Assembly: GCA_043814765.1 (NCBI GenBank)
Contig: JBDRJQ010000003.1
Location: forward strand, 1 to 17,970
Origin: Nanobdellota archaeon
GTDB lineage: Archaea; Aenigmatarchaeota; Aenigmatarchaeia; QMZP01
Length of the DNA: 17,970 bases
Direction: 5' to 3'
Shown here one piece after another: positions 13,684 through 15,380 of the stretch. The notes beneath the pieces were generated by a model. The model saw only the letters and a list, made by a program, of their open reading frames with translations. It did not search any database and was not told where the DNA came from. Position 1 is the stretch's first letter, and each line of letters starts with the position of its first letter. The position numbers and the translations under genes were made by a program.

Positions 13684-14247
13684 ATGATTGACTGGAGAAT
13701 ACTGACAGCATCATTTGCTGCGATAATAGTTGTATCTTCTATGTTTATGGGAGGCATTGGAGGAGATTTTTTTTCTAACATACTTGATGATGTAAGCAAC
13801 TGGCTTGGCTCATCACCTTTTAGTGGATTTTTCATAACGCCAGTAGTCAAGACACATGATATTGATTTAACAATTTATCCTAAACAAATTTCATTAACTC
13901 CTGATTCTAGTGTAAACTTTAGCTCAGAATCCAGCGTTATTAGGAATTTTAAAGGAACCATAAATCTAGATTTTGAAGAACAGACCATTGTTTTAGAAGA
14001 AGCAGATAGTTCACTAAGATACGAATCGTCTATTCAGAACCTAGAGATAGAGTACATAAAATTGAATACACTATCGCTAGATGATTTAAAACTGAAGATA
14101 GCGCCTGACATAACATCAGAAAATGGTTCTGCAGAATTATACAACTTTCAAGGAAAACTTACAATAACTTCTGAAAGCCTAAAATTTGAAGGCAATGTAT
14201 CAAAAATAGTAGCAAAGATCGGAGATAGTACCTGGGAACTGAAATAA
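13684..14247 (+). CDS. Hypothetical protein with N-terminal membrane anchor or signal peptide and beta-rich extracellular domain
   Basis: 187-aa ORF with hydrophobic N-terminus (WRILTASFAAIIVVSSMFMGG), divergent from DUF1512; no recognised family. Confidence 0.7.
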   Translation: MIDWRILTASFAAIIVVSSMFMGGIGGDFFSNILDDVSNWLGSSPFSGFFITPVVKTHDIDLTIYPKQISLTPDSSVNFSSESSVIRNFKGTINLDFEEQTIVLEEADSSLRYESSIQNLEIEYIKLNTLSLDDLKLKIAPDITSENGSAELYNFQGKLTITSESLKFEGNVSKIVAKIGDSTWELK

Positions 14248-14248
14248 G

Positions 14249-14350
14249 TGGGACAGGTGGGATTTGAACCCACGACTCCACGGTCTTCAGCCGTGTGCTC
14301 TCCCAGGCTGAGCTACTGTTATGGCCTAAGGTAAACCCCCTTAAGTTCCC
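14249..14350 (-). tRNA. tRNA-Phe(GAA) with intron at noncanonical position 4/5
   Basis: Exon 1 GGGA (14350-14347) plus exon 2 (14318-14249) give GGGACAG TA GCTC AGCCTGGGA GAGC A CACGG CTGAAGA CCGTG GAGTC GTGGG TTCAAAT CCCAC CTGTCCC A, a complete 74-nt cloverleaf. Anticodon at 14288-14286; CCA not encoded. Confidence 0.92.
14319..14346 (-). other. 28-nt BHB tRNA intron in the acceptor stem of tRNA-Phe
   Basis: TACT-ATGG-GA^A-CTTAAGG...CCTTAGG-CCAT-AA^C-AGTA forms helix/3-nt bulge/4-bp helix/3-nt bulge/helix. Cutting after the second nucleotide of each bulge restores GGGACAG. Confidence 0.85.
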
Positions 14351-15117
14351 ATAGTATTGTCCCACTTCTTTATAACACTCTTAAGTTTTTCTTGTTTTAT
14401 ATTATCTTCAAAACCTATTTCTTTATAAAACTTTATTAAGGAATCCTTTCTTTTTATATACATTCTTAAAGGTTTGGTTATATTACCATCTTTTCTCTTA
14501 TTACTGGTTTTGAGAGTAAATATATTTGTACTTTGTATATGAAAATATTTATTAAGTCCATATCTAATTTGACTTAAAAAATCTTTAGAGTTATCCATCA
14601 GATTTATTACTTTCCAGAATTCTATTCTTATTCCAGGACTCTTTCCACCCCAAACACTTCCTTCACAAGTAAAGGCTCTTTGAACAAATCTTCTGAAAAA
14701 CCCTTTATTTTTCATAATCCACTCAGGTACTAAGAATTTATTAAGAACTTTATTTCCAATTGGTACACCAGAGAGATATAGCAACCTGGCTAAAGGCTTA
14801 CAATTTACACCATAGTTAAACGATGTACTAAATTTGTTGGTTTTACAGGGTCTAGGTTTCCCTTTTATACCAAAAAAATGATAGACTTCGTTTTCAAATC
14901 TATACATCTCTTTTTTTAGTTTGAATGTATAATCAAATCTCCATCGAGGGTTTCCTTGAAGATGACCATCACACATTAAATCAGCAACAATACCCGACAG
15001 TCTTTCTGATGCTGAAACAGGGAAACTATGTTTATATGGAAGTAATGCTTTCTGACCAGCGGTTTTGGATTTGTATTTAGCAAGAATTTGTTTAAATGTG
15101 ATGAGTTGTTGCCCCAT
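14341..15117 (-). CDS. Free-standing two-motif LAGLIDADG homing endonuclease (DOD/intein-like type)
   Basis: Motif 1 LSGIVADLMCDGHL, intervening LARLLYLSGVPIGNK...VPEWI, motif 2 FVQRAFTCEGSV, C-terminal KFYKEIGF...KQEKL. Very Lys-rich and visibly AT-rich; no intein splicing termini. Confidence 0.85.
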   Translation of the reverse strand: MGQQLITFKQILAKYKSKTAGQKALLPYKHSFPVSASERLSGIVADLMCDGHLQGNPRWRFDYTFKLKKEMYRFENEVYHFFGIKGKPRPCKTNKFSTSFNYGVNCKPLARLLYLSGVPIGNKVLNKFLVPEWIMKNKGFFRRFVQRAFTCEGSVWGGKSPGIRIEFWKVINLMDNSKDFLSQIRYGLNKYFHIQSTNIFTLKTSNKRKDGNITKPLRMYIKRKDSLIKFYKEIGFEDNIKQEKLKSVIKKWDNTMGT

Positions 15118-15138
15118 ATACTTATTTTATTTTTAAAT

Positions 15139-15146
15139 TTTAAATA
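15139..15146 (-). promoter_or_regulatory. Putative TATA box for the LAGLIDADG/tRNA-Phe transcript
   Basis: Minus-strand TATTTAAA at -29..-22 from ATG 15117, in an AT-rich spacer, so chance matches are possible. Confidence 0.45.
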
Positions 15147-15174
15147 TAGAAAAACATCGTGCTTTAATTATTAG

Positions 15175-15306
15175 CGCCTCAGGAAGGACTTGAACCTTCG
15201 ACCCCACGGTTTCTGCTCTTGGAAGGTGGAAACCTCCTTTGGATGAAACCCTTTCTTAAAAGGTTTCTTAACAGCCGTGTGCTCTAACCAGCTGAGCTAC
15301 TGAGGC
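15175..15306 (-). tRNA. tRNA-Asn(GTT) with 58-nt intron at canonical 37/38
   Basis: GCCTCAG TA GCTC AGCTGGTTA GAGC A CACGG CTGTTA [intron] A CCGTG GGGTC GAAGG TTCAAGT CCTTC CTGAGGC G. Anticodon at 15272-15270; CCA not encoded. Confidence 0.95.
15211..15268 (-). other. 58-nt canonical tRNA-Asn intron
   Basis: Central helix CTGT/GCAG, bulges TA^A and AA^A; the intron body folds into two hairpins (relaxed BHB). Confidence 0.88.
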
Positions 15307-15380
15307 ACATATATATGTTTAGTTTATAGTAAAGAAATAATACAGTGTAAATTTAAATAATATACACCAATAGAGGATTT

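What the first reader, a model, noticed from the sequence alone, without database searches (positions are those of the whole stretch)
14312..14356. tRNA intron inside the acceptor stem (position 4/5), with a BHB built from the 5' leader
Seen: read contiguously, the tRNA-Phe 5' acceptor strand is broken. A strict hBHBh motif (outer TACT/AGTA, central ATGG/CCAT, bulges GAA and AAC, inner CTTAAGG/CCTTAGG) excises 28 nt and restores a perfect 7-bp stem. Six leader nucleotides (TACTAT) are needed, so splicing must precede RNase P cleavage. Known: acceptor-stem introns are rare and reported mainly at 3/4 in Thermoproteales. Standard tRNA finders would probably call this gene truncated or pseudo.
Basis: partly seen in the sequence, partly recalled or inferred. 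Interest (0 to 1): 0.78.

Follow-up and report, generated by a model that had tools for sequence, protein, structure and literature searches.

The report
Acceptor-stem tRNA intron tied to homing endonuclease
The only phenylalanine tRNA gene of this tiny archaeon is split after its fourth base by a short, properly shaped splicing intron, and the start of the tRNA lies inside the end of a selfish DNA-cutting enzyme gene that probably carried the intron there.

Summary
tRNA-Phe(GAA) spans 14248-14350. Exon 1 is GGGA and a 28-nt intron (14319-14346) follows it. A strict bulge-helix-bulge (BHB) motif uses six leader bases, and removing the intron restores a perfect 7-bp acceptor stem. None of 200,000 shuffles matched it.

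The same 4/5 intron, with different inner helices, occurs in 5 of 91 genomes of the order. It is the only tRNA-Phe found in this 88%-complete assembly. The genome encodes an epsilon2-type splicing endonuclease (EndA), the RNA ligase RtcB and a candidate RNase P RNA. No RNA data exist, so splicing is inferred.

The leader, exon 1 and the first six intron bases lie inside the 3' end of a 258-aa LAGLIDADG homing-endonuclease ORF (14341-15117). Its close orthologues sit in front of tRNA-Phe genes with a 4/5 or 3/4 intron. More distant family members sit in front of tRNA-Phe or tRNA-Trp genes with introns at 2/3, 3/4, 4/5 or 9/10. A same-genus genome lacks both ORF and intron. I read this as a co-inherited endonuclease-plus-intron unit, like collaborative homing.

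This scan had already noted endonuclease genes beside tRNA genes on other DNA.

The parts
14248..14350 (-). tRNA-Phe(GAA) gene including its intron; 75 nt after splicing, CCA not encoded
14347..14350 (-). exon 1, GGGA (tRNA positions 1-4)
14319..14346 (-). 28-nt BHB intron at position 4/5; single copy in this genome
14248..14318 (-). exon 2 (tRNA positions 5-73)
14351..14356 (-). six leader bases TACTAT. They form the outer BHB helix with A6-A9 and half of the central helix. They are also codons of the endonuclease ORF.
14314..14356 (-). complete hBHBh' motif (outer 4 bp, central 4 bp, two 3-nt bulges, inner 7 bp, 7-nt loop)
14358..14367 (-). upstream near-copy of the 5' acceptor strand (AAGTGGGACA). 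It is complementary to TGTCCCACTT (14254-14245) and paired with it in the predicted precursor fold. Its role is unproven.
14341..15117 (-). 258-aa two-motif LAGLIDADG homing-endonuclease-like ORF. Its last codons cover the leader, exon 1 and six intron bases, and its stop codon TAA lies inside the intron.
15175..15306 (-). tRNA-Asn(GTT) with a canonical-position intron. It is the conserved upstream partner of tRNA-Phe in this order and a possible left homology arm.

Best explanation
This is the working tRNA-Phe gene of a small-genome DPANN-type archaeon, interrupted between positions 4 and 5 by a 28-nt bulge-helix-bulge intron.

Proposed mechanism:
1. The precursor is transcribed with at least six, probably about 20 or more, leader bases that are also the last codons of the upstream gene.
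2. Leader bases -6 to -3 pair with tRNA bases 6-9. Bases -2, -1, G1 and G2 pair with CCAT near the intron's 3' end.
3. The epsilon2-type splicing endonuclease cuts in the two 3-nt bulges and RtcB joins GGGA to CAG.
4. Only then can the 7-bp acceptor stem form and RNase P trim the leader. Splicing must therefore precede 5' maturation.

Shown here: the motif, its conservation with structure-preserving changes, and the presence of the enzymes. Inferred: actual splicing and the order of steps.

Second layer, about 0.55-0.6 likely. The intron belongs to a unit with the LAGLIDADG homing-endonuclease gene whose 3' end encodes leader, exon 1 and the intron start. The enzyme would cut intron-less tRNA-Phe genes near their 5' end. 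Repair would copy the endonuclease gene plus the adjacent intron from the donor, using the conserved tRNA-Asn and the tRNA-Phe body as homology arms. The intron would protect the carrier allele by breaking the target.
For: Motif and chance:
- 0 of 200,000 shuffles as good as the real motif, 17 with any strict BHB.
- the spliced form is a full tRNA-Phe.

Conservation:
- The pattern search over 91 genomes of the order hit 6 genomes, 5 of them real, with 0 control hits.
- The per-locus table shows central helices kept through A-T, G-C and G-T changes and invariant CT at -4/-3, while the codon's first base varies (ACT, GCT, TCT).

Only copy.

Enzymes:
- EndA of 396 aa matches 4fz2 over its full length at E 2.5e-94. 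I recall 4fz2 as the ARMAN-2 epsilon2 enzyme; PMC3239211 describes that enzyme type.
- The abstract and passages of PMC3239211 say this type cuts both canonical and non-canonical BHB motifs.
- RtcB scores 522.7 bits.
- An RNase P RNA candidate is full length at E 5e-16.

Endonuclease layer:
- AlphaFold model with pLDDT 88.9.
- Foldseek top hits are the TliVMA intein endonuclease, PI-PfuI, I-WcaI, I-Tsp061I and I-DmoI, at E 6e-10 to 1e-6.
- D50-G51-H52 are invariant, and the second motif is acidic in 8 of 8 aligned sequences.
- Orthologues at 52-61% identity occur only in G085, G087 and G074. All three lie directly upstream of a 4/5-intron tRNA-Phe and overlap it.
- A 46%-identical orthologue in another MAG precedes a tRNA-Phe with a strict 3/4 intron.
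- G001, of the same genus, lacks both the ORF and the 4/5 intron at the Asn-Phe pair.
- G006 keeps the intron and the last ~20 nt of the ORF region but has no ORF.
- At class level, 29 of 371 genomes carry a homologue. The tRNA-Phe or tRNA-Trp next to them has introns at 2/3, 3/4, 4/5 or 9/10.
- The ORF's GC content is 30.6%, against 34-38% for its neighbours.
Against: - No transcript evidence of any kind is available (no RNA holder listed).
- The 45-nt fold energy alone is not exceptional (z -1.62).
- G006's central helix has one A-C mismatch. G085 and G087 have only a 1-bp inner helix, so those are relaxed motifs.
- The RNase P RNA hit is below Rfam's gathering score (57.8 against 84 bits).
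- Pfam LAGLIDADG_3 is just under its cut-off (21.3 against 22.5 bits).
- The assembly is 88% complete, so a second tRNA-Phe cannot be excluded.
- For the homing layer, no cleavage site is known.
- G006 carries the 4/5 intron with no ORF beside it, and G007 (L023) has a strict 9/10 intron although one search found no homologue in that genome. Some homologues have no tRNA nearby, or a divergent one (L069, L070, L092).
- The Phe-endonuclease-Asn block is inverted relative to its flanks compared with G001 and G006, and G001 has a different gene after tRNA-Phe. The comparison is therefore not a clean filled-versus-empty site.
- The carrier genomes are relatives, not independent samples.
Confidence: 0.8

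Rival explanations
1. The endonuclease gene and the intron are neighbours by history only. The intron arose or spread on its own, for example by the intron transposition proposed for Thermoproteales or by the small hairpin modules noted elsewhere in this genome. The endonuclease gene merely landed in the tRNA-Asn/tRNA-Phe spacer and read through into the tRNA until it met a stop codon.
For: - G006 has the 4/5 intron and no ORF.
- G007's tRNA-Phe (L023) has a strict 9/10 intron although one search found no homologue in that genome.
- Some homologues have no tRNA beside them.
- All five 4/5 carriers could descend from one event.
- Earlier scan notes describe insertable hairpin modules in this genome's tRNA introns.
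Against: - This intron has no other copy in the genome; the longest stray match is 12 nt.
- Across Phe- and Trp-linked members of the family, the adjacent tRNA carries an intron within its first 10 bases at four different positions. That is hard to get from one inherited event.
- Of 18 homologous ORFs examined in the order, 10 overlap or abut the 5' end of a same-strand tRNA.
- Loss of the ORF with retention of the intron is the expected late stage of a homing cycle.
Confidence: 0.3
2. The true 5' exon is the upstream copy (GGGACA at 14363-14358). The removed segment is then longer, about 41 nt at 4/5, or everything between copy and T8, and the proximal GGGA is intron sequence.
For: - A full or near-full copy of the 5' acceptor strand lies 7-12 nt upstream in G000, G006, G074, G085 and G087, and in several class-level loci.
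- The predicted precursor fold pairs it with the 3' acceptor strand.
- In G006 and G074 both readings give the same mature sequence.
Against: - No BHB can be drawn at the distal site, by my hand check of the letters. The distal central helix is worse than the proximal one in 3 of 4 lineages, there is no inner helix after the distal bulge, and the outer strand does not pair.
- In G000 the copy reads GGGACAA, which would leave an A-C mismatch at 7-66. In G085 and G087 it reads GGGGCAG.
- The strict proximal motif is the only solution my scan returned.
Confidence: 0.06
3. The gene is a pseudogene. The insertion of the endonuclease gene destroyed the 5' end of tRNA-Phe, and a working copy lies in the unassembled 12% of the genome.
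For: - The assembly is 88.2% complete in 39 contigs.
- ARAGORN and Rfam see a broken acceptor stem.
Against: - The motif restores the stem perfectly and is far beyond chance.
- The same arrangement persists in five genomes of two families with compensating changes.
- The body of the tRNA is 98% identical to that of the sister genome.
- No second GAA tRNA was found.
Confidence: 0.04

Closest known systems
Acceptor-stem (position 3/4) BHB introns of Thermoproteales tRNAs (Sugahara et al. 2008, as summarised in section 4 of PMC4090602)
   Same: A protein-spliced BHB intron sits inside the 5' acceptor strand. By geometry the helices must draw on 5' leader bases.
   Different: - The position is 4/5, not 3/4.
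- The host is a DPANN-type archaeon with an epsilon2 rather than an (alpha-beta)2 endonuclease.
- The leader is coding sequence of a homing-endonuclease gene.
- I could not search for '4/5' in print because the search tool rejects the slash. I therefore cannot say this position is unreported.
ARMAN-2 (Micrarchaeum) epsilon2 splicing endonuclease and its heavily disrupted tRNA set (PMC3239211; structure 4fz2)
   Same: The EndA here matches 4fz2 over its full length (E 2.5e-94). That enzyme type cut a strict BHB at 37/38 and a relaxed one at 59/60 in vitro (passages read).
   Different: The passages of the paper's main text that I read mention introns at 37/38, 53/54 and 59/60, and the terms 'acceptor' and 'leader' do not occur in its main text. 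Its supplementary tRNA tables could not be opened and may list other positions.
[quoted passage not shown]
   Same: The endonuclease gene lies outside but next to an ORF-less intron in a conserved gene, and the two co-occur across genomes. The intron would interrupt the presumed target.
   Different: - The intron is a protein-spliced BHB intron in a tRNA, not a self-splicing group I intron.
- The ORF physically overlaps exon 1 and the intron.
- The host is an archaeon.
- The cleavage site is untested.
Archaeal intron- and intein-encoded LAGLIDADG endonucleases (I-DmoI, I-Tsp061I, PI-PfuI, TliVMA intein)
   Same: Same fold by Foldseek, and two motifs with conserved acidic residues.
   Different: By the titles of the PDB entries those enzymes are intron- or intein-encoded. 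This one is free-standing and runs into a tRNA gene. One distant homologue (L062) does lie next to 16S rRNA sequence.

Membership tests
Archaeal BHB (hBHBh') tRNA intron | Two 3-nt bulges on opposite strands separated by a 4-bp helix | tested here: met
   ATGG/CCAT between bulges GAA and AAC
Archaeal BHB (hBHBh') tRNA intron | Flanking outer and inner helices | tested here: met
   Outer helix 4 bp, inner helix 7 bp
Archaeal BHB (hBHBh') tRNA intron | Removal yields a canonical cloverleaf | tested here: met
   ARAGORN calls a 75-nt tRNA-Phe on the spliced form, with the junction after base 4
Archaeal BHB (hBHBh') tRNA intron | Genome encodes an endonuclease able to act at non-canonical positions, and a ligase | tested here: met
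   Epsilon2-type EndA; RtcB. Activity is inferred from the homologue.
Archaeal BHB (hBHBh') tRNA intron | Intron is actually excised in vivo | not testable with these tools
   No RNA run lists the locus
LAGLIDADG homing endonuclease | Two-domain alpha-beta-beta-alpha-beta-beta-alpha fold | tested here: met
   Model pLDDT 88.9. 140 PDB matches at E<=0.001, led by LAGLIDADG enzymes.
LAGLIDADG homing endonuclease | Two LAGLIDADG-type motifs ending in an acidic residue | tested here: met
   D50-G51-H52 invariant. The second motif has E in 7 and D in 1 of 8 sequences. The motif assignment is by my reading of the alignment.
LAGLIDADG homing endonuclease | Passes the curated Pfam threshold | tested here: not met
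   LAGLIDADG_3 scores 21.3 bits against a cut-off of 22.5. Precomputed PF14528 marks are listed for 19 of the 69 relatives. I file it by fold, not by Pfam.
LAGLIDADG homing endonuclease | Site-specific DNA cleavage and homing | not testable with these tools
   Only a patchy presence/absence pattern is available
Collaborative homing unit | Endonuclease target coincides with the intron insertion site | not testable with these tools
   Needs a cleavage assay
Collaborative homing unit | Free-standing endonuclease gene and ORF-less intron co-occur at one gene | tested here: met
   All 4 genomes of the order holding a close orthologue (>=52% identity) have the 4/5 intron beside it. One further 4/5 carrier (G006) lacks the ORF.

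The most novel reading that the evidence does not exclude
A family of free-standing LAGLIDADG endonuclease genes in DPANN archaea targets the first ten bases of tRNA genes. It travels together with a short BHB intron at 2/3, 3/4, 4/5 or 9/10 that breaks its own target site. This would be a protein-spliced, archaeal counterpart of collaborative homing and a concrete engine for the gain of non-canonical tRNA introns.

Because such introns lock the true 5' acceptor strand into the BHB, these loci also carry an upstream surrogate copy of that strand. The copy pairs with the 3' acceptor strand in the precursor. It may let the precursor be cut out of the endonuclease mRNA before splicing, with a second RNase P cut afterwards.
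Probability: 0.35. Interest if true: 0.8.

Novelty: new variant of a known kind. Interest (0 to 1): 0.62.

Why it matters
How archaeal tRNA genes acquire introns at odd positions is unsettled. Here an essential, single-copy tRNA depends on an intron whose splice motif is built from leader bases. This fixes the order of processing steps (splice first, trim the 5' end second) and can be tested with one transcript and one enzyme.

The physical overlap with a homing-endonuclease gene, repeated across tRNA-Phe and tRNA-Trp loci and across several intron positions, points to a DNA-level mechanism for intron gain. That mechanism can also be tested with a simple cleavage assay.

In practice, such genes are mis-called by ARAGORN and the Rfam tRNA model. 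Small archaeal genomes would then appear to lack tRNA-Phe or tRNA-Trp.

Tried and rejected
- Exon 1 upstream of the ORF (one large ORF-containing intron). The ORF start ATGGGG in G000 resembles leader plus exon 1, but the orthologues start ATGGGC and ATGGAT. Rejected.
- The intron as one of the genome's repeated hairpin modules. No other copy exists; the longest stray match is 12 nt.
- Other acceptor-stem introns in this genome. The BHB-removal scan gave one further candidate (contig C4, tRNA-Met, junction at 8), which folds poorly and is spurious. Relaxed motifs were not scanned.
- Expression. The look-up of sequencing runs listed three DNA runs of one groundwater study (best word share 0.17) and no RNA holder.
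- Wider pattern search over 371 genomes of the class. It hit 18 genomes. All 12 loci outside the known five were coding sequence without a T-arm, and the reversed control pattern hit about as often.
With the single protein it gave 3 loci in genome contigs and 4 in metagenome contigs. Only one organism among them added a tRNA-Phe case.
- Profile search of PDB sequences gave only weak hits to V-ATPase intein chains (E about 6e-4). The fold search was needed.
- Literature. No paper held all of LAGLIDADG, tRNA intron, bulge-helix-bulge and homing endonuclease in an archaeal tRNA context (3 hits, none on this). The same was true for homing endonuclease, tRNA intron, archaea and free-standing (2 hits). 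These were listings only. Position numbers with a slash cannot be searched.
- The contexts of the 69 database homologues could not be fetched, because the tool for encoding contigs is closed.
Full report
WHAT IS THERE. The feature lies on the minus strand. Read 5'->3' there, the sequence from 14356 is: leader TACTAT, GGGA, a 28-nt segment (14346-14319), then CAG TAGCTCAG and a normal tRNA-Phe(GAA) body that ends CTGTCCC A at 14248.
- ARAGORN on the raw DNA calls 14248-14322 with a broken acceptor stem.
- Rfam's tRNA model aligns only model positions 4-67, at 49.9 bits.
[quoted passage not shown] The outer helix is TACT/AGTA and the central helix is ATGG/CCAT. The bulges are GAA and AAC. The inner helix is CTTAAGG/CCTTAGG, with one G-T pair and a 7-nt loop.
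- Cutting after the second base of each bulge joins GGGA to CAG and gives seven Watson-Crick acceptor pairs.
- The centroid fold of the 45 nt is this structure. The fold energy alone is unremarkable (z -1.62).

CHANCE. I shuffled the 120 nt upstream of C5 200,000 times. For each shuffle I asked for any exon-1/intron combination that restores the stem through a strict BHB.
- 17 shuffles gave one. None was as good as the real motif.
- A BHB-removal scan of the whole 859-kb assembly followed (41,618 candidates, each spliced in silico and passed to ARAGORN). It recovered this intron as a 75-nt tRNA-Phe with the junction after base 4.
- The only other acceptor-region candidate in that scan was spurious.
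- Because an A repeats at both borders, a 3/4 cut would give the same product. Only the BHB geometry assigns 4/5.

CONTEXT OF THE ORGANISM. The assembly has 39 contigs, 37% GC, 88.2% completeness and 1.2% contamination.
- It encodes one splicing endonuclease of 396 aa, which matches PDB 4fz2 over its full length (E 2.5e-94). I recall 4fz2 as the ARMAN-2 epsilon2 enzyme described in PMC3239211.
- That enzyme type cut both a strict BHB at 37/38 and a relaxed one at 59/60 in vitro, and its host has 56% disrupted tRNA genes (PMC3239211, abstract and passages).
- RtcB is present.
- A full-length RNase P RNA candidate lies just after the 23S rRNA, below Rfam's gathering score (57.8 against 84 bits).
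- No other tRNA-Phe was found by BLAST of the gene, by the splice scan, or by a search for GAA anticodon arms with D and T motifs (1 of 56 arms, this one).

COMPARATIVE SUPPORT FOR THE INTRON. I searched the order's 91 genomes with a pattern for 'exon 1, 12-40 nt, bulge, exon 2, D-arm'.
- The pattern hit 6 genomes, with no hit for the reversed control. Five hits are tRNA-Phe genes: G000, G006, G074, G085 and G087, from two families. One is coding sequence.
- Intron lengths are 28, 23, 15, 15 and 15 nt.
- The inner helices are unrelated in sequence: 7 bp, 5 bp, 2 bp with a GAAA loop, 1 bp and 1 bp.
- The central helix is kept through A-T, G-C and G-T changes, with one A-C mismatch in G006.
- Leader bases -4/-3 are CT in all five and pair with G7/A6, while the first base of that codon varies.
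- In tRNAs with other acceptor sequences that carry 3/4 introns, the leader strand changes to match bases 5-9 of that tRNA. Examples are ACGT/ACGT, CAAGA/TCTTG and TATCG/CGGTA. This is the covariation expected if leader-exon pairing matters.
- The same-genus genome G001 has an uninterrupted GGGACAG and instead an intron in the T-loop.
- Other relatives have tRNA-Phe introns in the D-loop, at 9/10 or in the T-loop. Intron turnover in this gene is fast.

An ORF on the same strand (14341-15117, 258 aa) ends inside the tRNA.
- Its last codons are the leader and exon 1, and its stop codon is intron bases 4-6.
- Pfam gives only a sub-threshold LAGLIDADG_3 hit.
- An AlphaFold model built on eight homologues has pLDDT 88.9.
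- Its best structural matches are LAGLIDADG enzymes: the TliVMA intein endonuclease, PI-PfuI, I-WcaI, I-Tsp061I, I-DmoI and I-SceI.
- Both motif positions keep their acidic residue in 8 of 8 aligned sequences.
- Within the order, 34 of 91 genomes have some homologue. Orthologues at 52-61% identity occur only in G085, G087 and G074, where the ORF is split across two contig ends. These are exactly the other-family carriers of the 4/5 intron.
- In each, the ORF runs into exon 1 and the intron. In G074 its stop codon is T8-A9-G10.
- G006 has the intron and the last ~20 nt of that region directly after the upstream tRNA, but no ORF.
- G001 has neither ORF nor intron; there tRNA-Asn lies about 50 nt before tRNA-Phe.
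- tRNA-Asn followed by tRNA-Phe is the common arrangement in the order. The endonuclease gene sits between the two in G000, G085 and G087.
- A 46%-identical orthologue in a MAG labelled Woesearchaeota precedes a tRNA-Phe with a strict 16-nt intron at 3/4.

THE PATTERN IS GENERAL.
- Of 18 homologous free-standing ORFs examined in the order, 10 overlap or abut the 5' end of a same-strand tRNA. One lies next to 16S rRNA sequence.
- The ~35%-identical group precedes tRNA-Trp genes with strict 3/4 introns built from ORF-encoded leaders. Two of these share the end motif in different reading frames, which points to an RNA-level rather than a protein-level constraint.
- Across the class, 29 of 371 genomes have a homologue at E<=1e-25.
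- Next to those homologues I found tRNA-Phe genes with strict 9/10 introns (7 of 9 loci tested; two of the nine, L010 and L023, came from the relatives set, and no adjacent homologue was established for them). I also found tRNA-Trp genes with 3/4 or 4/5 introns, and one tRNA with a 2/3 intron.
- The database search found 69 homologues at E<=1e-10. Most are labelled hypothetical and come from MAGs named Aenigmatarchaeota, Micrarchaeota or Woesearchaeota.
- The own genome holds a second case. On contig C1 a 304-codon LAGLIDADG-like ORF ends with its stop codon on T8-A9-G10 of a tRNA that ARAGORN mis-calls.

HOW IT MOST LIKELY WORKS.
- Shown: the motif, its conservation and the enzyme set.
- Inferred: the precursor keeps its leader until EndA and RtcB have removed the intron. 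Before that, G1-A4 and A6-A9 are locked in the BHB and no acceptor stem exists for RNase P to measure.
- More tentative (about 0.55-0.6): the endonuclease cuts intron-less tRNA-Phe genes near their 5' end. Repair from a carrier copies the endonuclease gene together with leader, exon 1 and intron, using tRNA-Asn and the tRNA-Phe body as homology arms. The intron shields the carrier allele.
- This is the logic of collaborative homing, described for phage group I introns (PMC3984707, section 12). Here it would apply to a protein-spliced intron.

EVIDENCE AGAINST A SIMPLE STORY.
- G006 carries the 4/5 intron with no ORF beside it, and G007 (L023) has a strict 9/10 intron although one search found no homologue in that genome.
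- Some homologues have no tRNA nearby, or a divergent one.
- The Phe-endonuclease-Asn block is inverted relative to its flanks when compared with G001 and G006.
- The carriers are relatives, not independent samples.

AN UNEXPLAINED EXTRA. Seven to twelve bases upstream of exon 1 there is a second copy of the 5' acceptor strand.
- In G000 it is 14363-14358, one base short of a full copy.
- The copy is present in all five 4/5 carriers.
- In class-level loci it matches the tRNA concerned: the Phe strand before tRNA-Phe and the Trp strand before tRNA-Trp.
- In the predicted precursor fold of G000, ten bases (14367-14358) pair with the 3' acceptor strand plus trailer while the BHB stays intact.
- It may be a scar of a duplication, or a surrogate strand that holds the 3' acceptor strand while the true 5' strand is in the BHB.
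- It is not a better 5' splice site. By my hand check of the letters, no BHB can be drawn there.

COMPARISON WITH WHAT IS KNOWN.
- Acceptor-stem introns are acknowledged in print: 3/4 in Thermoproteales (PMC4090602, section 4) and a general statement in the introduction of PMC12397907.
- tRNAscan-SE 2.0 is described as extending candidates by 60 nt to catch introns near the ends (PMC8450103, passage).
- My two searches for a link between LAGLIDADG genes and archaeal tRNA BHB introns found nothing on it (listings only).
- This scan, however, had already recorded endonuclease genes beside intron-bearing tRNA genes in other genomes. I used those notes as leads and tested the pattern here independently.

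VERDICT. The observation and the reading are right, and the intron is very probably functional. On its own it is a one-base variant of a known rarity. The overlap with a homing-endonuclease gene, repeated across tRNAs and intron positions, is the more interesting part, and it remains to be tested at the bench.

Noticed in passing
window 15175-15306 (minus strand): tRNA-Asn(GTT) with a ~59-nt intron at the canonical position. It scores 56.6 bits with Rfam and is the conserved upstream neighbour of tRNA-Phe in this order.
   Followed up: partly
G000 contig C1 10093-11007 (+) and the tRNA after it (to about 11102): A second LAGLIDADG-like ORF (304 codons) whose stop codon TAG is T8-A9-G10 of a tRNA with acceptor AGCCCTG/CGGGGCT. 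The tRNA has a hairpin insert in the D region. ARAGORN calls it Thr(tgt); by eye it looks like Gln(CTG).
   Followed up: partly
window 14358-14367 (minus strand) and 14245-14254: An upstream near-copy of the 5' acceptor strand is complementary over 10 bases to the 3' acceptor strand plus trailer. Similar copies recur before tRNA-Phe and tRNA-Trp genes with 5'-proximal introns in relatives.
   Followed up: partly
window about 14248-15362 compared with L004 (G001) and L003 (G006): The tRNA-Phe / endonuclease / tRNA-Asn block is inverted relative to its flanking genes when compared with both relatives. G001 carries a 220-aa gene after tRNA-Phe that is absent here.
   Followed up: partly
G000 contig C29 6798-7150 (L068:1501-1853): A full-length match to archaeal RNase P RNA directly after the 23S rRNA gene. 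It is below Rfam's gathering score (57.8 against 84 bits).
   Followed up: no
whole genome G000: Only 22 matches to the Rfam tRNA model in an 88%-complete genome. Several ARAGORN calls (Phe aaa, SeC, Stop) look like mis-read intron-bearing tRNAs. My strict-BHB scan added tRNA-Ala(tgc), Glu(ttc) and Leu(tag) with non-canonical introns.
   Followed up: partly
L035 (G074:C46), L036 and L037 (G085, G087), L069 (minus strand 330-500): tRNA-Phe genes with two to four or more introns each (acceptor stem, D-loop, anticodon stem, T region).
   Followed up: no
L062 (G046:C2): A distant homologue of the endonuclease ends next to 16S rRNA sequence. It is probably a classical rRNA-intron endonuclease.
   Followed up: no
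L101 (G107:C67): The Phe-type endonuclease homologue carries one in-frame TGA and may be a decaying copy.
   Followed up: no
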